Shown piece by piece: positions 12,001-18,000 of a stretch of DNA of 64,000 nucleotides (positions within the stretch are counted from its first letter, which is position 1; each line of letters begins with the position of its first letter). The position numbers are program-made. The stretch spans positions 1 to 64,000 of the forward strand of contig CBFGTS010000014.1 in the NCBI GenBank assembly GCA_965652295.1, given 5' to 3'. Source of the DNA: an uncultured Haloferula sp. (GTDB taxonomy: Bacteria > Verrucomicrobiota > Verrucomicrobiia > Verrucomicrobiales > Akkermansiaceae).

Positions 12001-15000
12001 ATTTCGACGGCAAGGTCATCTCGCACACCATCGTGACCGCTTCCGGGGAAAGGAAGACCCTCGGGGTGATCCTGCCCGGCAGCTATCATTTCGGCACCGA
12101 GGCACCGGAACTCATGGAGATCGCCGGCGGCGCGTGCAGCCATGTCATCGATGGCACCGAGGACACCATCGCCACGCAGACGGGCGGTTCCTTCAACGTC
12201 CCGGGCAAGAGCGGCTTCACCATCACGGTCGAGGGCGAGCCCTGCCACTATGTTTGCAGCTTCCTGTGAAAGGAGCGCCGATTATGAAATCGGCATCGTC
12301 GTGCCCTTGGCGGCGATCTCTCCATGGGTGATCCAAGTTGCCGAAACGGCCGTGGGGGAATTCGGGGGCTCCATTCGTGAAGCCAACATCGGAGGGCGAT
12401 TCGTGCCGATTTCATAATCGGCGCTCCTTGCTCTTGGCTTCAGGTCACAAAAAAGGCCCTCCGGCGGTTTCCCGCCGAAGGGCCTTGTTCCGGATCATCC
12501 GATCCACCTCTTCTCCCCGCCCTCTCGGGACAGTGAAAAAAAGGAGGGGAGTGGGAACTCGCCACGTTCTCTTTCCCCGGTCGACTGGCATTGGGCGCCC
12601 AAGTCCGCCCGTCGAGCTTCGTTGGCTGCCAGTTCCCCGACGTCGCGTCTGCCTGCGAGGACGAATCGCCTGCCTTTCCGGCTCCGCGACGGAGCCGGCC
12701 GGGATGTCGCCATCCTCGGCTTTTCGGGTGAGACTTCTTCGCCCGGATTTCCGGCATCTGCCGATGCCCGCTGTCCGAACCTCGGGTGGAAAGCCCCGCT
12801 GAGAACGGTGCCCTCCTCCCTTTCCCCCGGGGTCGGCATCGCGGCGCTCTCGCTCGCGACCGTTGGCCCCGGGTGACGGGTCTTGTCTCTTACCCCTCAC
12901 GTTGCCTTTCTTGTTTTCTCAGTCGGACGACCGCGTTTCCGCCGGCCTCCCGCTCTCATCGGACTTTATCGCCCGCTCCGTGGTCATCACCTTTGCGCCG
13001 GTGCCTTCCTTCGGAGGGACTCATTCCGCGATGGTTGGATCTCTTTTTTCTCCACCCGGTTGCGATTCCGGGCGATTTCCGCGGCCTTTCGCTTCGTCCT
13101 TCGGCCGCAGGATCTCCTTCCCACCACACTGGCTCACAGTAGCAACTGTCCGGTCTCTTTCGACCGACTGTGTTCGCATCCGTCCCCCGTCGTTCAACCG
13201 TTGGGGGGCTCCATGCGTGACTCGGCTTTGCGATTGGTTGGGTGGCGCGCGTCCTGGCCGGACGCACCTCCACATCGCTCACCGCCTGACTTCCTTTTCG
13301 TGTTTCACGGAAAGACACGACTCTTTCCGCCGGAAGCCGGTGACATTGGCCTCGGACTTGCCGCGATGAACCACCGCCCAGTTTCCGAGGGGCCGGGAAC
13401 GCCAGTTCGTCCCGACCATTGCTCCGGACTTTCGCCCGGATCTATCCCAAGCGCGCTCGTAACCCAAAGGCTCCTTCCCGCGCTCCATTTCTGTCAAAGA
13501 TCAATGTCCCTTGCGAGACATCTGCGACTTAAGCAAAGGCCCTTGACAGAGTCAATGAGATTCTTGCATATCACACTGGGAATAAAAGGGTTGTGAATAT
13601 CCTGTGAGTAACTTTCGGTTGACGTCTGGTGCTGAGTGAATTGCGCTTGCTTCCGGATGCCGGAGGAGAGGTCCGTCCGCTCGGAAGGCGGTCGATTTCA
13701 CCGGAAAAAACGACGGAAACCCCGATTTCAGGGTCCCCTCCCACGCATTCATCGCTAAAAGTCCGCCAAGCCGCCATGGACGACCTCTTTTCCTCCGCCC
13801 CGGGTCCCGCAGAACGCATCGCCGCGCTGCGGGACGAGATCCGCCGGCACGACGAACTCTACTACAATCAAGCGATTCCGGAGATTTCCGACGCGGAATA
13901 CGACAAGCTCTTCCGGGAACTGGAGGAGCTGGAAGCCAATTGCCCCGAGCTGGCCGATCCAAACTCACCCACCCAACGCGTCGGCGGCAAGCCGATCGAG
14001 GGTTTTACGCAGGTGCGCCACCTCGTGCCGATGCTCTCGATCGACGACGTCTTCGAGCTCGATCCCGCCACCACCGACACGCCCGAAGCCGAGCTGATCG
14101 AATTCTACCGGCGCCTTCAGAAGAATCTCGGCCGCGAGGAAGTCGACGTCACCGTGGAGCCGAAGATCGATGGCGTCGCGGTCTCGCTCGTCTACCGCGA
14201 CGGCACCCTCGACTACGCCGCCACCCGCGGCGACGGCGAAACCGGCGACGACATCACGCACAACGTGCGGACCATCCGCAGCGTGCCGCTCCAACTCACC
14301 TCGATTGACGCCCCCGCCCCCGATACCTATCTTCAGATCAATGAACTCCTCGGCATCCCCATCGGCACTGGCAAACCAACTTCGCCGGAAGAGATCCGAG
14401 AGTTCGCGGCAAGCCTCGAAGCTCAACACGCGGGAAGCGATGGAGCAGATGTGGAAGAACGGCTCCGACAAGAAGCCGAATCCGTTCGCCAGTGGGGAAA
14501 TCGTTCCGGCCGGATCGTCCAAGCGGAGCGGCTGAAAGAGCTTCTGGCCTCCCAGCCCGATCTCGGCGGTCAGTCCGAGCATACGGTCTTTTTCCTGCCC
14601 GGCCACGGCCGTGTGGTGAAGTTCACCCTGCCTCCTTACTTCGGTGCCCAGAGCGCCGCCGGCTACCTGCGGAACATCGTCCACGCCAACCGACTCTTCG
14701 GCGACGACATCCACCTCCACGGCATCCTCGACACGGAAAAGGGTCCCGCCTTCGTCGTCTCCCAGCCGTTCATCCCCGGCACCCGTCCGACGGACGAAGA
14801 GGTCGCATCGTGGTTCAGCCGCGCGGGGTATGAAAGCACGGGCCACAACCGCTGGCTCCACCACGCGGCGGAGATCGAAATCGCCGATGCCCACACAGGG
14901 AACCTCATCAAGACCGAGGACGGCGGACTCATCCCCATCGACCTTCAGATCCTCCGTGCGCCGGAGTCGCCCGCTCTCCCATCCACCATCCAACATCTTC

Positions 15001-18000
15001 CATCGCTGCTCGAAATCCGCGGCGAGATCTTCATGCCGAACGAGGCCTTCGCCGCCATGAACGCCGAGCGCGACGAGCAGGGTCTCCCGACTTTCGCCAA
15101 CCCGCGCAACGCCACGGCCGGCACGCTCAAGCAACTCGATCCGAAAAAGGTCGCCGAGCGCCCGCTCGATTTCCTGGCTCACGGCATCGGTGCCTACGAA
15201 GGCCCCGAACTTGCGAGCGAAGACGATTTTTCCGACCTCCTCGACCGCCTCGCCATCCCGCGCAACCAGCCGCTGATCCACGCCGAGAACCTCGACGAAC
15301 TCCTCGCCGCGATCGCCCACATCGACACCCACCGCCACGACCTCGCCTACGGTACCGATGGTGCGGTGGTGAAGGTTGCGAGCTACGAGGAACGCCGTAG
15401 TCTCGGCTTCCGCTCGCGCGCGCCGCGCTGGGCCGCCGCCTACAAGTTCCTGCCGGAGCAGCAGGAAACCGTCCTCAATGCCGTCACCGTCCAAGTTGGC
15501 CGCACCGGCGTGCTCACGCCGGTGGCGGAACTCGAGCCTGTGCTCGTCTCCGGCACCACCGTTTCCCGTGCCACCCTCCACAACCAGGAGGAGATCCAGC
15601 GCAAGGACGTCCGGATTGGCGACACGGTCCTCATCGAGAAGGCCGGGGAAATCATCCCGGCGGTGGTGAAAGTCATTCTCGAAAAACGTCCGGCCGACTC
15701 TCAGCCGTTCTCGCTTTTCGACCATGTCGGCGGGAAATGCCCGTCCTGCGGTGGCCCGATCGCCCGCGAGGAAGGCTTCGTCGCCTGGCGTTGCGGGAAC
15801 TTCGAATGCCCGGCGCAGGCGGTTTCCAAGATCAAGCAGTTCACCTCGCGCAAAGCACTCGACATCGAAGGTGTCGGCGGAATCGTCGCCGAGGCGCTGG
15901 TTTCCCGCGGGCTGTGCACGACGCCGCTGGACCTGTTCACCCTCACCGAAGAGCAGCTCGCCACCCTCAACCTCGGCAGCGACGAAGAGCCGCGCCGCTT
16001 CGGGGAAAAGAACGCCGCCAAGGTGATCGAATCGCTCGACCGCGCCCGCACCAAACCGCTCGACCGCTGGCTTTTCGCCATGGGCATCCGGCAGGTCGGC
16101 GAGTCCGCTTCGAAGGAACTCGCCCGGCTTCATAACGCCTTGCCGGAACTCGCCGATTCCGAGGTTTTGAAAGCCCTCCGAGAGGACACCCGCGCCGACG
16201 CCAAGAAGAAGAACGAAACGCTCATTCCCTATCAGGTTTCCGCCGATGTCGGCGGGGCGGTCGCGGAGAGCGTGCTGGCCTTCTTCGAATCCGAGGCCGG
16301 CCGGCACGTGCTCGACCGAATGGCCGAGCTCGGGCTTCAACCGGTCTCCGAGAACTTCCTTCCCAAGCCAGCAGAGGCCGACCTTTCCGAACTACCGCTG
16401 GCGGGGAAGACCTTCGTCCTCACCGGTACCCTCAGCATCGGGAGGGATGAGATGAAGCGCCTGCTCGAATCCAAAGGAGCCAAGGTGAGCGGCAGCATTT
16501 CCAAGAACACCGATTACCTCGTCGCCGGAGAAGGCGGCGGCTCGAAACGGGACAAGGCGGAGAAACTGGGCGTGAAGGTGATCGACGAAGAAGAGACGCG
16601 GCGGCTTCTCGGCTGAATGCATGCACGCGAAAACCGCCCGGCCAGGACCGGGCGGGCGGAGTTCGGCTTGGATCACGCCAGAGTGGACGGTCACTCCTCC
16701 TCTTCCATCTCCGGCACGATCACCGTGTCGACGGCGTGGATCACGCCGTTGCTCACGTTGAGGTCAGGCTGGGTGATGGTGGCGTCGTTGATCATCATGT
16801 GCTCGCCATCCGTAGACACGGTCAACGAGGTTTCACCGCTGGTCGTGATGGTGCCGGCGGTGAGTTCCTCGGCCAACAGCTCGCCGGCCACCACATGGCC
16901 GAGCAGAACGCGGCTCAGCTGCTCCTTGTTCTCCGGCTTCATCCACTCGTCGAGGGTGGCTTCGGGGATCTTATCAAAAGCCTCATCGGTCGGCGCGAAG
17001 ACTGTGAAGGGCCCGGGTTGGTCCAGGACCTCGCGCAAACCGGCGGCATCCACCACCTTGTTCAACGTGCTGAAATTCTCCGCGTCGCGAAGCGCTTCGG
17101 TGATCGTCTGCGAAGCATCCACGGTGTCGCGTTGGGTGGTGTGCGACGGGGTCTTGCCCGGCGGGCCGGCCTTCCGCATCTCGCGTGCGCCGGTGGCTTG
17201 GTCGGTCGATTCCTCATCGCCTGCCGTGGTATCGGTGCGTTGCACCTGGTTCTCCTGCGCGGGATCGCCCATCGGCGGTGTGTCGTTCGTTTCCTGCGCT
17301 TGAAGAACAGCTGGGACAGCCATCGTCAGGCTCAGGGTCATCAGAATATTTCGAAGTTTCATCGGTTCGTTTGGTTTCGGTTTCCGCAGCCGGTTCCGGG
17401 TTCGGCCAAGCTGCGCCGGAAGACGTCGCATACCTCGTTCCGATGGAAACTTGCTCTTCAGAACGGTCCGCTAATCACTCGCAGTGAGTCGGTTGAGAAT
17501 CTCAATCCACCCAGTGAATGGCACCGGACCAGCACCCGCTCCGTTGCACTCCCGCCGTTTTCGGGTGCAGGCTGCACACTCTCCCGTCCGACTATTTCCA
17601 CCGCTGCGCCATGACCAGTGATCCCGCCACCAGCAGGGCTCCACAGATGAGCCCCCAGCCGGCCCGCTCGTTTTCGAGGAAAATCAGGGATTCCGTCATG
17701 CCGCAGAGCGGAATGAGAAACCGATAGCCCGCCAACAGCGGCACCGGGTGACGCGTGGAAAGGTGGTTCCAGAGCCCGAAGGCAGCCGCGGAAACGAAAG
17801 CCAGCCAGCAGGTCAGGCCGATCACCGCCGGCGTCATCAGCTCCGCCGCGCGGCTGAAGGCGGGGGCTCCCGTGACCAGAAGCATCAAGCCCCCGATGCC
17901 CAGCGAGAACCCGGTCGCCGCCCGCGCCCCGATGGAGTGCCGGAGTTTCCCGAACTGGATGATGCCCACCGCCCCCAGCCCGGTGGCCGCGATCATCAAT

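What a model noticed while it worked through the whole genome (the two positions that open the first line are those of the whole stretch)
13776..16616. NAD-dependent DNA ligase LigA with a Kinase-PolyVal domain inserted in its adenylation domain
The only LigA (g02780, 946 aa) carries a ~220-residue insertion (aa ~180-400) inside the adenylation domain that matches the Kinase-PolyVal family, otherwise known from polyvalent proteins of phages and conjugative elements. I read it as a second kind of in-frame passenger domain in an essential gene of this lineage, possibly giving the replicative ligase a kinase activity (on 5'-OH nick ends or on a partner protein). New would be a natural ligase-kinase chimera in an indispensable replication enzyme.
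Evidence so far: pfam.tsv: DNA_ligase_aden hmm 3-97 at aa 76-178, Kinase-PolyVal (E 9.6e-14, hmm 3-154 of 160) at 232-390, DNA_ligase_aden hmm 90-253 at 402-561. The insert is in LigA of 3 of 60 other Akkermansiaceae genomes (G055, G022, G057; 52-61% id in the insert, LigA 61-65% overall) and in a 2581-aa open frame of G028; 4 of 5 sampled congeners lack it; stand-alone ~230-aa homologues in 8 genomes. No terminal inverted repeats (best score 9, random range 7-14; call 41). A stand-alone Kinase-PolyVal gene g00558 lies beside a HigA antitoxin gene.
(Added by a program. Inside this text positions count along the whole contig: contig position 1 is position 1 of the stretch shown here. "Call 12" and the like, gene names such as g00115 and contig names such as C1 are that model's own, and its searches are not shown. 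The text may have been shortened before it was handed on; [...] marks where a part breaks off. The agent that wrote the report below was given it as the finding of a first reader that could run no searches.)

Follow-up and report, generated by a model that had tools for sequence, protein, structure and literature searches.

The report
DNA ligase carrying a nested kinase
The bacterium's replicative DNA ligase has a complete, apparently active small protein-kinase domain plugged into a surface loop, and related bacteria have gained, swapped and lost this add-on many times, much as defence genes behave.

Summary
Confirmed. Window 13776-16616 (+) encodes a 946-aa NAD+-dependent LigA, the only one in a 98%-complete genome. 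All its ligase domains and catalytic residues are intact. A 224-aa insert (aa 182-405) sits in the hairpin loop just before motif III.

The insert is a whole Kinase-PolyVal module: Pfam 50 bits against a cut-off of 27, AF2 pLDDT 92, and fold matches to kinases only. K282, D371, N376 and D389 are kept in 120 of 120 LigA chimeras, and the kinase core has dN/dS 0.06-0.21.

The chimera was found only in three Akkermansiaceae genera (19 of 201 sampled genomes). All LigA inserts form one clade, yet presence changes at least 13 times on a tree of 69 LigAs. Supporting signs are deletion scars, one inter-genus transfer (AU p 0.005), synonymous-rate discordance and one dead copy.

The same module is nested independently in NspC and fused to an Opp-type ATPase. 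Free-standing copies lie inside type I R-M operons and beside a HigA antitoxin.

I read it as an active, dispensable, conflict-type protein kinase tethered to LigA, not a DNA 5'-kinase. Its substrate is unknown. I found no published report.

The parts
13776..16616 (+). ligA coding sequence, 946 aa plus stop (P0001)
13776..14318 (+). LigA N-terminal part (aa 1-181): Nlig-Ia domain and the first half of the adenylation (NTase) domain, including motif I Lys130 (nt 14163-14165)
   Evidence: Pfam. It aligns to E. coli LigA residues 6-166. K130, D132 and G133 are present in 69 of 69 LigAs.
14319..14990 (+). In-frame insert (aa 182-405, 224 aa): a complete Kinase-PolyVal module
   Evidence: It is absent from E. 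coli LigA and from 50 of 69 family LigAs, which have a 6-25-residue loop at this position. The AF2 model has pLDDT 92.4. GC content is 0.60-0.66, the same as the flanks.
14319..14549 (+). N-terminal helical part of the insert (aa 182-258; four helices)
   Evidence: Secondary structure. From about aa 205 onwards it is also present in the free-standing ~230-aa homologues, whose matches cover insert residues ~24-216.
14469..14945 (+). Kinase core (aa 232-390). Key residues: Glu268; beta-3 Lys282 (nt 14619-14621); Gln330; catalytic-loop Asp371 (14886-14888) and Asn376 (14901-14903); DFG-like Asp389 (14940-14942)
   Evidence: Pfam PF18762. These residues are invariant in 120 of 120 chimeras and nearly invariant in 51 family members. 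Fold matches are to kinases.
14991..16616 (+). LigA C-terminal part (aa 406-946): second half of the NTase domain (motif III Glu417, motif IV Lys533, motif V Lys557), OB fold, 4-Cys zinc finger, HhH and BRCT

Best explanation
The gene encodes a working NAD+-dependent replicative ligase. A complete minimal protein-kinase-fold domain of the Kinase-PolyVal family is plugged into the surface beta-hairpin loop just before nucleotidyltransferase motif III. Two flexible linkers tether it.

The module was captured once. Its source was the pool of conflict-associated kinases of Verrucomicrobia, which occur in polyvalent proteins of mobile elements and as small free-standing genes. Since then it has behaved as a dispensable accessory cassette: kept under purifying selection where present, deleted repeatedly, passed laterally between ligA alleles, and occasionally inactivated.

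I infer that it is an ATP-dependent protein kinase, not a DNA-end kinase, and that its role is in phage or mobile-element conflict or stress signalling. LigA would serve as scaffold or sensor. The ligase reaction itself neither needs nor is changed by the domain.

Shown: the architecture, the fold, the conserved active site, the selection pattern, the single origin, the gain/loss/transfer dynamics, and the other host proteins and contexts.

Inferred: kinase activity, a protein substrate, and the conflict role.
For: **Architecture**
- define the insert and show the ligase parts are intact.
- Ligase catalytic residues are intact in 69 of 69 LigAs, with or without the insert.

**Fold**
- The insert-only AF2 model has pLDDT 92.4 and pTM 0.88.
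- Foldseek gave 20 matches with E <= 1e-3; all those listed in the output are protein kinases.
- All 50 rows shown by VIA-align are kinase-fold enzymes, best Z 6.9. They include the minimal effector kinases OspG, NleH1 and HopBF1.
- In the full-length model, confidence falls below 50 only at aa 1-5, at the two junction linkers (177-180 and 399-405), and at 264-267 inside the insert.

**Active site**
- E268, K282, Q330, D371, N376 and D389 are kept in 120 of 120 LigA chimeras and in 18 of 19 genome loci.
- They match the family's defining features (PMC5512222, passages read).

**Selection**
- dN/dS is 0.06-0.21 for the kinase core and 0.05-0.25 for the ligase flanks.

**Origin**
- The 19 LigA inserts form one clade (support 94). 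Next to it lie a 237-aa free-standing protein and a 3609-aa giant protein.

**Dispensable and mobile**
- Presence changes at least 13 times on a tree of 69 LigAs. Supported sister pairs differ in state.
- Scar loops occur in insert-free LigAs.
- The insert of G114 (genus g12) nests among genus g5 inserts. Monophyly of the two g12 inserts is rejected (AU p 0.005), and the reverse grouping of the flanks is rejected (p 0.0002).
- Synonymous divergence differs between flank and insert: 0.68 against 0.23, 0.61 against 0.21, 0.38 against 0.64 and 1.10 against 0.59.

**Conflict context of the family**
- Among 20 free-standing loci, 3 lie between hsdR and hsdM, 1 lies beside hsdM, and 9 more lie beside nuclease, helicase, transposase, HipA, KilA-N or repressor genes.
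- The genome's own free-standing copy overlaps a HigA antitoxin gene.

**Independent nesting elsewhere**
- The module is also nested in NspC and fused to an Opp-type ATPase.
Against: - There is no activity, expression or phenotype data, and no RNA run was listed.
- No PADLOC or PHROGs family matches the domain, so a defence role rests on context only.
- The 20 free-standing loci are related to one another: most fall in one clade. No base rate for such neighbours was measured.
- ligA's own neighbours in the window are ordinary or unrecognised.
- One chimera (G057) has lost three catalytic residues yet keeps the domain. A non-catalytic role, or slow decay, is therefore possible.
- VIA-align Z-scores of 6-7 are middling by the tool's own note.
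- The 13-change count comes from a quick tree in which 23 of 66 inner branches are poorly supported.
- The AU groups were named after I had seen the tree.
- The dS values come from my own Nei-Gojobori script, without error bars.
Confidence: 0.55

Rival explanations
1. Cis-regulatory switch. The kinase autophosphorylates LigA, or responds to ATP, and allosterically tunes ligase activity. On this reading it is a housekeeping regulator rather than a conflict device.
For: The insert lies in the adenylation domain one strand before motif III, a position from which movement could reach the active site. The active site is conserved. Domain insertion is a known route to allosteric switches (search listing only).
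Against: No ligase positions co-vary with presence of the insert; the largest frequency difference is 0.44, and it is confounded by phylogeny. Closest relatives do without it: G103 is 88% identical and lacks the insert. The same module sits in NspC and on an Opp-type ATPase. The junction linkers are predicted to be flexible.
Confidence: 0.15
2. Selfish or nearly neutral passenger. The domain persists because it sits in-frame in an essential gene and spreads by recombination between alleles, like an intein without splicing. Any retained activity serves the element (for example toxin-like addiction) or serves nothing.
For: Distribution is sporadic, with lateral transfer, scars and a dead copy. 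It is nested in unrelated housekeeping genes. A free-standing relative occupies the toxin position of a HigA pair.
Against: Selection acts on the kinase residues themselves, not only on the reading frame: 120 of 120 catalytic sets are intact and core dN/dS is 0.06-0.21. There is no endonuclease or other drive mechanism in the 224 aa. There are no intein motifs at the junctions.
Confidence: 0.15
3. Ligase plus polynucleotide kinase. The domain phosphorylates 5'-OH ends at nicks so that the same enzyme can seal them.
For: A kinase physically joined to a nick-sealing enzyme is suggestive. Kinase-ligase repair enzymes exist (T4 Pnk with ligase, bacterial Pnkp; recalled, not tested here).
Against: - The fold is protein-kinase-like, not the P-loop of known polynucleotide kinases, and no PNK family was hit.
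- The domain is acidic, with pI 4.7-5.9 and net charge -4 to -18 in 19 of 19 copies.
- The module also occurs in NspC, an Opp-type ATPase, R-M operons and a HigA pair.
- The authors who defined the family predict protein substrates (PMC5512222, passages).
Confidence: 0.07
4. Assembly or gene-calling artefact, or an intein-like element removed from the mature protein.
For: The window comes from a metagenome-assembled genome.
Against: The same architecture is present in single-contig genomes G055 and G057 and in named isolates such as Luteolibacter and Haloferula species. A 3033-nt contig from an independent study spans both junctions. There is no Hint or intein family hit and no Cys/Ser ... His-Asn junctions. 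The frame is open throughout.
Confidence: 0.01

Closest known systems
Kinase-PolyVal domain (PF18762) of polyvalent proteins of phages and conjugative elements (Iyer et al. 2017, PMC5512222)
   Same: Family membership by score. The C-lobe is missing. The ATP-binding and phosphotransfer residues are retained, as are the family-specific Glu before strand 2 and Gln in the last N-lobe strand. The phylum matches (Verrucomicrobia). The closest non-LigA relatives include a 3609-aa giant protein and a 2580-aa LPD3-bearing polyvalent protein.
   Different: Here the domain is not in a polyvalent protein of a mobile element. It is nested inside a chromosomal housekeeping enzyme. The passages I read in that paper do not mention LigA.
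E. coli LigA (PDB 2owo) and bacterial LigA in general
   Same: All domains and catalytic residues are present. The NCBIfam equivalog scores 745 bits. It is the only LigA in the genome.
   Different: There are 224 extra residues in the loop that holds 7 residues in E. coli and 6-8 residues in 39 of 50 insert-free family LigAs.
Minimal bacterial effector kinases OspG, NleH1 and HopBF1
   Same: A small kinase fold of about 160-180 aa with a truncated C-lobe. Structural matches have Z 6.0-6.7.
   Different: There is no detectable sequence relationship. Those are secreted effectors acting on eukaryotic hosts (recalled). The Z values are middling.
Inteins and homing elements in essential genes
   Same: In-frame insertion into a conserved essential gene. 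Distribution among close relatives is sporadic, with lateral transfer between alleles, decay and precise loss.
   Different: There are no splicing motifs and no endonuclease. The domain stays in the mature protein, and its own enzymatic site is under selection.
PrrC-type guardians embedded in type I R-M loci (review PMC12707154, passages read)
   Same: Free-standing relatives of the insert lie between hsdR and hsdM in 3 of 20 loci. An effector held next to, or inside, the machine it may monitor is the working analogy for the LigA chimera.
   Different: PrrC is an anticodon nuclease, not a kinase. No trigger or toxicity has been shown for this family. The analogy is an inference.
Kinase-ligase repair enzymes (T4 Pnk with ligase; bacterial Pnkp/Hen1), recalled
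   Same: A kinase and a ligase are combined.
   Different: Those kinases are P-loop enzymes, are joined end to end, and act on nucleic-acid ends. Here a protein-kinase fold is nested within the ligase domain.

Membership tests
NAD+-dependent DNA ligase LigA | Full-length match to the curated equivalog model above its cut-off | tested here: met
   NF005932 scores 745.1 bits against 369; TIGR00575 scores 698.6 against 444
NAD+-dependent DNA ligase LigA | Catalytic motifs: motif I KxDG lysine, motif III Glu, motif IV and V lysines | tested here: met
   K130, D132, G133, E417, K533 and K557 are present and invariant in 69 of 69 LigAs. Correspondence to the E. coli motif numbers is recalled.
NAD+-dependent DNA ligase LigA | Domain set Ia, NTase, OB, 4-Cys zinc finger, HhH, BRCT | tested here: met
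   Pfam hits for all six. C655, C658, C673 and C678 are invariant.
NAD+-dependent DNA ligase LigA | NAD+-dependent nick sealing | not testable with these tools
   Needs an enzyme assay
Kinase-PolyVal (PF18762) | Pfam score above the gathering cut-off | tested here: met
   50.2 bits against 27, covering hmm 3-154 of 160. 29 of the 30 nearest ESM Atlas clusters carry PF18762; the best scores 0.98.
Kinase-PolyVal (PF18762) | Kinase N-lobe and catalytic strands kept, whole C-terminal subdomain lost | tested here: met
   The model ends about 15 residues after the DFG-like Asp389, and no helices follow. Kinase matches cover only the N-terminal 150-170 columns.
Kinase-PolyVal (PF18762) | Conserved ATP-binding and phosphotransfer residues (beta-3 Lys, catalytic Asp ... 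Asn, metal-binding Asp) | tested here: met
   K282, D371, N376 and D389 are kept in 120 of 120 chimeras and in at least 90% of 51 family members.
Kinase-PolyVal (PF18762) | [quoted passage not shown] | tested here: met
   E268 and Q330 are invariant. H357 (His in 109 of 120, Tyr in 11) lies 13 residues before D371. The assignment of His357 as the family's conserved His is my reading.
Kinase-PolyVal (PF18762) | Location in a polyvalent protein of a phage or conjugative element | tested here: not met
   It lies inside chromosomal LigA. There is no match in phage, plasmid or viral-contig collections. This is a feature of context, not of the domain family.
Protein-kinase-like fold | Structural similarity to solved kinases | tested here: met
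   Foldseek probability up to 1.00 for CK2alpha, PknB, Csk and PINK1. All 50 VIA-align rows shown are kinase-fold enzymes, with Z up to 6.9, which is middling.
Polynucleotide 5'-kinase (T4 Pnk / Pnkp type) | P-loop kinase fold and family match | tested here: not met
   No such Pfam or NCBIfam hit. The fold is kinase-like, not P-loop.
Intein | Hint domain, and a Cys/Ser/Thr at the insert's first residue and at the first residue of the downstream ligase segment, with His-Asn at the insert's end | tested here: not met
   No Hint family hit. The junction sequences lack these residues.
Kinase toxin of a toxin-antitoxin pair (HipA-like logic) | An adjacent cognate antitoxin gene | tested here: not met
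   Not met for the LigA insert: the ligA neighbours show no antitoxin. The free-standing paralogue in the same genome does overlap a HigA gene.

The most novel reading that the evidence does not exclude
The kinase is a mobile, in-frame immune effector cassette. A potentially toxic minimal kinase is built into housekeeping enzymes that phages must use or disturb: LigA, the polyamine enzyme NspC and an Opp-type ATPase. The host enzyme acts as the built-in sensor or guardee, and the kinase fires on its perturbation, for example when LigA clamps on abnormal nicks, when LigA is inhibited, or when NAD+ collapses. The cassette travels between alleles of essential genes by recombination. This would be a guard architecture with the effector integrated into the guarded protein, and a new way for defence functions to move.
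Probability: 0.2. Interest if true: 0.85.

Novelty: new variant of a known kind. Interest (0 to 1): 0.7.

Why it matters
LigA is among the most conserved and best studied bacterial enzymes, and it is an antibiotic target. I found no report of a natural version carrying a second, apparently active enzyme inside its catalytic domain. It shows which loop of the adenylation domain tolerates a 25-kDa domain, which is useful for engineering.

It also links a replication and repair enzyme to phosphosignalling. And it offers a tractable example of a domain-sized cassette that is gained, exchanged and lost in-frame in essential genes without any splicing or homing machinery. If the conflict reading holds, it adds a new kinase family and a new sensor-effector architecture to bacterial immunity.

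Tried and rejected
- **Sequence search of the insert against PDB chains.** Only a non-significant hit (capreomycin phosphotransferase, E 0.17).
- **PADLOC and PHROGs.** No family for the insert or for 7 free-standing relatives.
- **Viral contigs.** The single-protein query found no relative.
- **GenBank phages and PLSDB plasmids by tblastn.** No match at E <= 1e-3.
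- **Earlier findings of this scan.** Nothing by place or by sequence.
- **Recombination tract next to the insert.** G000 stays closest to insert-free G103 along the whole gene. No donor-like tract is visible.
- **Terminal repeats in the window.** Only short direct repeats (11 nt and 9 nt) near chance expectation, and no terminal inverted repeats.
- **Co-variation of ligase residues with insert presence.** Nothing convincing.
- **Sequencing runs.** No RNA holder was listed. Contig joints that skip the insert have short sides (30 or less) at 90% likeness, and one carries a canonical short loop. I attribute them to other organisms' insert-free ligA, not to excision.
- **NspC-type chimera.** Not found in 401 sampled genomes of the class with that kinase as query.
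- **Complex prediction on the genome's free-standing kinase with its HigA neighbour.** No verdict.
- **Literature.**
  - 'Kinase-PolyVal' occurs in one paper, as a list entry only.
  - No paper held 'DNA ligase' + 'Verrucomicrobia' + 'kinase domain' + 'inserted'.
  - The only paper holding 'Luteolibacter' + 'DNA ligase' looks unrelated from its title and abstract start (listing only).
  - The LigA/domain-insertion/kinase search returned unrelated papers.
  - Two Aravind-group papers cite the polyvalent-protein paper only in their reference lists.
  - The supplementary files of PMC5512222 (an ftp site) were not seen and could list LigA architectures.

Full report
**1.

Window 13776-16616 (+) is an open frame of 946 codons. 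Pfam finds every LigA domain: Nlig-Ia, adenylation, OB, zinc finger, HhH and BRCT. The adenylation domain is split in two, with its second stretch at aa 402-561. Between the two stretches lies a Kinase-PolyVal match at aa 232-390 (50.2 bits against a cut-off of 27, E 3.7e-13). The NCBIfam LigA equivalog scores 745 bits against a cut-off of 369, in two stretches.

Aligned to E. coli LigA (2owo), residues 13-181 match E. coli 6-166 and residues 406-946 match E. coli 162-670. The extra piece is therefore aa 182-405 (nt 14319-14990). It sits in the turn of the hairpin that leads into motif III.

GC content across the insert (0.60-0.66) does not differ from the flanks. The genome is 98.1% complete. 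It has this one LigA and three ATP-dependent-ligase-like frames elsewhere. That LigA is essential in this organism is inferred from other bacteria, not shown.

**2. What the insert is**

A search of 1.84 billion representative proteins with the insert alone found 751 relatives at E <= 1e-3, 184 at E <= 1e-10 and 20 at E <= 1e-30. They fall into three groups:
- LigA chimeras.
- Free-standing proteins of about 210-260 aa, whose matches cover insert residues ~24-216.
- Giant proteins of 1600-6300 aa.

The insert therefore equals one whole free-standing module: a helical N-terminal part plus the kinase core.

An AF2 model built on 51 sequences is confident (pLDDT 92.4, pTM 0.88). Foldseek gave 20 matches at E <= 1e-3, and all those listed are protein kinases (CK2alpha, PINK1, Csk, PknB). 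An independent all-against-all structural search shows kinase-fold enzymes in all 50 rows shown. The best Z is 6.9, which is middling. The hits include the minimal effector kinases OspG, NleH1 and HopBF1.

The chain ends about 15 residues after the metal-binding Asp. The C-lobe is therefore missing, as the family's describers state (PMC5512222, passages read).

**3. The active site is intact and under selection**

In 37 full-length chimeras the insert has many invariant positions. Across 51 distant family members the nearly invariant ones are E268, H269, K282, T284, G290, Y297, N305, D310, Q330, G335, D371, N376, I388 and D389.

These include the beta-3 lysine, the catalytic Asp-x4-Asn loop and the DFG-like Asp. 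They also include the family-specific Glu and Gln named in PMC5512222.

All 120 of the 120 best LigA chimeras (clusters at 90% identity) keep E268, K282, Q330, D371, N376 and D389. Pairwise dN/dS is 0.06-0.21 for the kinase core, 0.11-0.39 for the whole insert and 0.05-0.25 for the ligase flanks (my own Nei-Gojobori script, no error bars).

There is one exception. The G057 chimera has Gly, Asp and Gly at positions 371, 376 and 389, so its kinase is dead while the domain is retained.

The ligase residues K130, D132, G133, R151, E417, K533 and K557 are present in 69 of 69 LigAs, with or without the insert.

**4. Distribution**

Among 201 sampled genomes of the family, including this one, the LigA-embedded form is in 19:

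| Genus | Genomes with the chimera |
|---|---|
| g1 | 6 of 24 |
| g5 | 11 of 23 |
| g12 | 2 of 16 |

In a class-wide sample of 301 genomes, strong matches (E <= 1e-25) occur only in this family (2 of 301, counting the window's genome). Source names on listed chimeras include Luteolibacter species, Haloferula chungangensis and Akkermansiaceae MAGs.

Near-identical contigs that carry the insert occur in three other studies of soil and sludge. One 3033-nt contig spans both junctions.

**5. Evolutionary behaviour**

I fetched ligA from 68 genomes: all 23 other g1 genomes, 22 of 23 g5, 13 of 16 g12, and 10 from seven other genera. I dropped G035 because its gene lies at a contig end. I dropped G106, G122 and G146 because their rows were not listed. 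The family's other genomes were not fetched.

*Loop lengths.* Insert-free LigAs have a loop of 6-8 residues in 39 of 50 cases, 9-11 residues in 6, and 16-25 residues in 5. Chimeras have 229-277 residues over the same span.

*State changes.* On a tree built from ligase columns only, presence of the insert changes at least 13 times. That tree was a quick search in which 23 of 66 inner branches were below 80% support. Supported sister pairs nevertheless differ in state:

| Pair (with / without insert) | Support |
|---|---|
| G076 / G119 | 100 |
| G111 / G187 | 100 |
| G088 / G130 | 100 |
| G114 / G138 | 99 |
| G055 / G084 | 95 |
| G179 / G165 | 93 |

The window's own nearest LigA, from G103, is 88% identical and lacks the insert.

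*Single origin.* All 19 inserts form one clade in a 179-row family tree (support 94). Beside it lie a 237-aa free-standing protein and a 3609-aa giant protein.

*Agreement and conflict between trees.* The insert and flank trees agree for (G111,(G000,G135)), for (G076,G193) and for a g5 subclade. The insert of G114 (g12), however, nests inside that g5 subclade (100/99 and 99/96). Holding the two g12 inserts together is rejected (AU p 0.005). Holding the G114 flanks with the g5 rows is rejected (p 0.0002). Both groups were named after I had seen the tree.

*Synonymous divergence*:

| Pair | Flank dS | Insert dS |
|---|---|---|
| G075-G126 | 0.68 | 0.23 |
| G075-G150 | 0.61 | 0.21 |
| G150-G110 | 0.38 | 0.64 (core 0.82) |
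| G114-G075 | 1.10 | 0.59 |

*Loss is visible as scars.* Insert-free G172 has a loop beginning LKEGLHPAAQQ. The same 11-residue motif, with Ser in place of Pro, forms the C-terminal tail of the insert in G150 and the N-terminal junction in G110. The 33-nt stretches encoding it are 32 of 33 identical. The cassette therefore lies on either side of this motif in two close relatives, and is absent from a third that keeps the motif.

*Ancestral loops.* Many insert-free g1 LigAs carry the loop type seen in outgroup genera (x-G-x-A-P-x-L). A deletion would not recreate that loop.

Taken together, the data indicate one capture followed by vertical descent, repeated deletion and lateral re-acquisition between ligA alleles. 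I saw no donor-like tract in the flanks. I also found no endonuclease, intein motif or terminal inverted repeat. Homologous recombination through the highly conserved flanking codons is the likely vehicle. That is an inference.

**6. Context of the family**

The genome's other copy is a 308-aa gene. Its stop overlaps the start of a HigA-family antitoxin gene (TIGR02607, 56.9 bits against 47.7), and an SNF2 helicase gene lies nearby.

I examined 20 free-standing loci in family genomes:
- 3 lie between hsdR and hsdM of type I R-M systems (G135, G011, G042), and 1 lies beside hsdM (G039).
- 9 lie beside other conflict or mobile genes: HipA plus a transposase, a ResIII/DUF3427 helicase, another helicase, Vsr, an IS200 transposase, HNH, an S24 repressor, an NgoFVII-like nuclease, and KilA-N.
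- 7 have ordinary neighbours.

These loci are related to one another, since most fall in one clade, and I measured no base rate.

G028 carries a 2580-aa LPD3 plus Kinase-PolyVal polyvalent protein whose kinase is 47% identical to the insert.

The module has also been captured independently by other housekeeping proteins:
- Carboxynorspermidine decarboxylase NspC. P0162 is 640 aa, scores 473 bits on TIGR01047 in two stretches, and has the kinase at aa 345-503. There are 7 cluster members, and a second cluster is named nspC in a Verrucomicrobiaceae MAG.
- An Opp/Dpp-type ABC ATPase with the kinase at its C-terminus (509 aa).

These form clades separate from the LigA inserts.

**7. How it most likely works**

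*Shown:* a folded, separately tethered kinase domain. In the full-length model the low-confidence stretches are aa 1-5, the two junction linkers at 177-180 and 399-405, and 264-267 inside the insert. Its catalytic apparatus is conserved, and it sits in a ligase that keeps all its own parts.

*Inferred:* it transfers phosphate from ATP to a protein. The grounds are these:
- The fold and the family point to protein substrates (PMC5512222).
- The domain is acidic in 19 of 19 copies (pI 4.7-5.9).
- Its presence in NspC and an Opp-type ATPase argues against a role tied to DNA ends.

The following all fit a conflict-type accessory function:
- Its gain, loss and transfer dynamics.
- The dead copy in G057.
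- The R-M and HigA contexts of its relatives.
- Its origin among polyvalent-protein kinases.

The closest working analogy is a guardian such as PrrC inside a type I R-M locus (PMC12707154, passages read). On that analogy LigA would be the scaffold or sensor. The trigger and substrate are unknown.

The rivals are a cis-regulatory switch, a selfish passenger and a DNA 5'-kinase. They are weighed in their own sections.

**8. Novelty**

Both families are known. The nested architecture, its mobility without splicing or homing machinery, and its recurrence in other housekeeping enzymes appear unreported. My searches and the passages I read found no mention of it. Public records name these proteins simply as LigA. 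The ftp supplements of PMC5512222 were not seen.

Noticed in passing
G000 contig C2:102843-106349 (L002: 1456-2382 -, 1016-1459 -): A free-standing 308-aa Kinase-PolyVal gene. Its stop overlaps the start of a HigA-family antitoxin gene (TIGR02607 above cut-off), giving a toxin-antitoxin-like layout with the kinase in the toxin position. An SNF2 helicase gene lies beside it.
   Followed up: partly
L085 (G135:C32), L088 (G011:C31), L090 (G042:C1), L083 (G039:C21): A ~230-aa Kinase-PolyVal gene sits between hsdR and hsdM of type I restriction-modification operons in three genera, and beside hsdM in a fourth genome. This may be an undescribed R-M accessory or guardian gene. PADLOC has no model for it.
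   Followed up: partly
P0162, P0270, P0272, P0274, P0275, P0276 (640/637 aa); P0278, P0279 (509 aa): The same kinase module is nested inside carboxynorspermidine decarboxylase NspC and fused to the C-terminus of an Opp/Dpp-type ABC ATPase in Verrucomicrobia MAGs. These captures are independent of the LigA one.
   Followed up: partly
L027 (G057:C1:6278000-6282300): This LigA chimera has lost three kinase catalytic residues (positions 371, 376 and 389 read Gly, Asp, Gly), while the domain and the ligase stay intact. It is a pseudokinase stage.
   Followed up: partly
L073:2024-9766 (G028:C8): A 2580-aa polyvalent protein with LPD3 and Kinase-PolyVal domains, preceded by a 666-aa protein with a glucosaminidase domain. 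It is the closest non-LigA relative (47% identity) among the sampled family genomes.
   Followed up: partly
L056, L057, L059 (g12), L049 (G172), L038 (G045); L012-L027 (g1): LigA varies in length elsewhere too. Some g12 and g5 proteins have 209-265 residues where the window has 173 (aa 1-175). Many g1 proteins have 203-211 residues where the window has 169 (aa 700-870). These stretches were not identified.
   Followed up: no
G000 C4:1338-1958 (-), C11:117358-117864 (+), C3:188715-189179 (+): Three ATP-dependent DNA-ligase-like frames (PF01068) in the same genome, in open frames of 1132, 795 and 433 aa. LigA is therefore the only NAD+ ligase, but not the only ligase-fold protein.
   Followed up: no
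window 9895-12036 (+), 12883-13596 (+), 16617-17303 (+), 17458-18480 (-): The long ORFs flanking ligA have no Pfam family at E <= 1e-3. Several may be overlapping non-genes in this GC-rich DNA. A fasciclin-domain gene (16691-17431 -) and a tryptophan-halogenase gene (18550-20232 -) lie downstream.
   Followed up: no
window 14276-15016 as laid in runs X3 and X5: Metagenome contigs of other organisms in the same soils join the ligase flanks across a short canonical loop. Insert-free and insert-bearing ligA relatives therefore co-occur in one habitat.
   Followed up: partly
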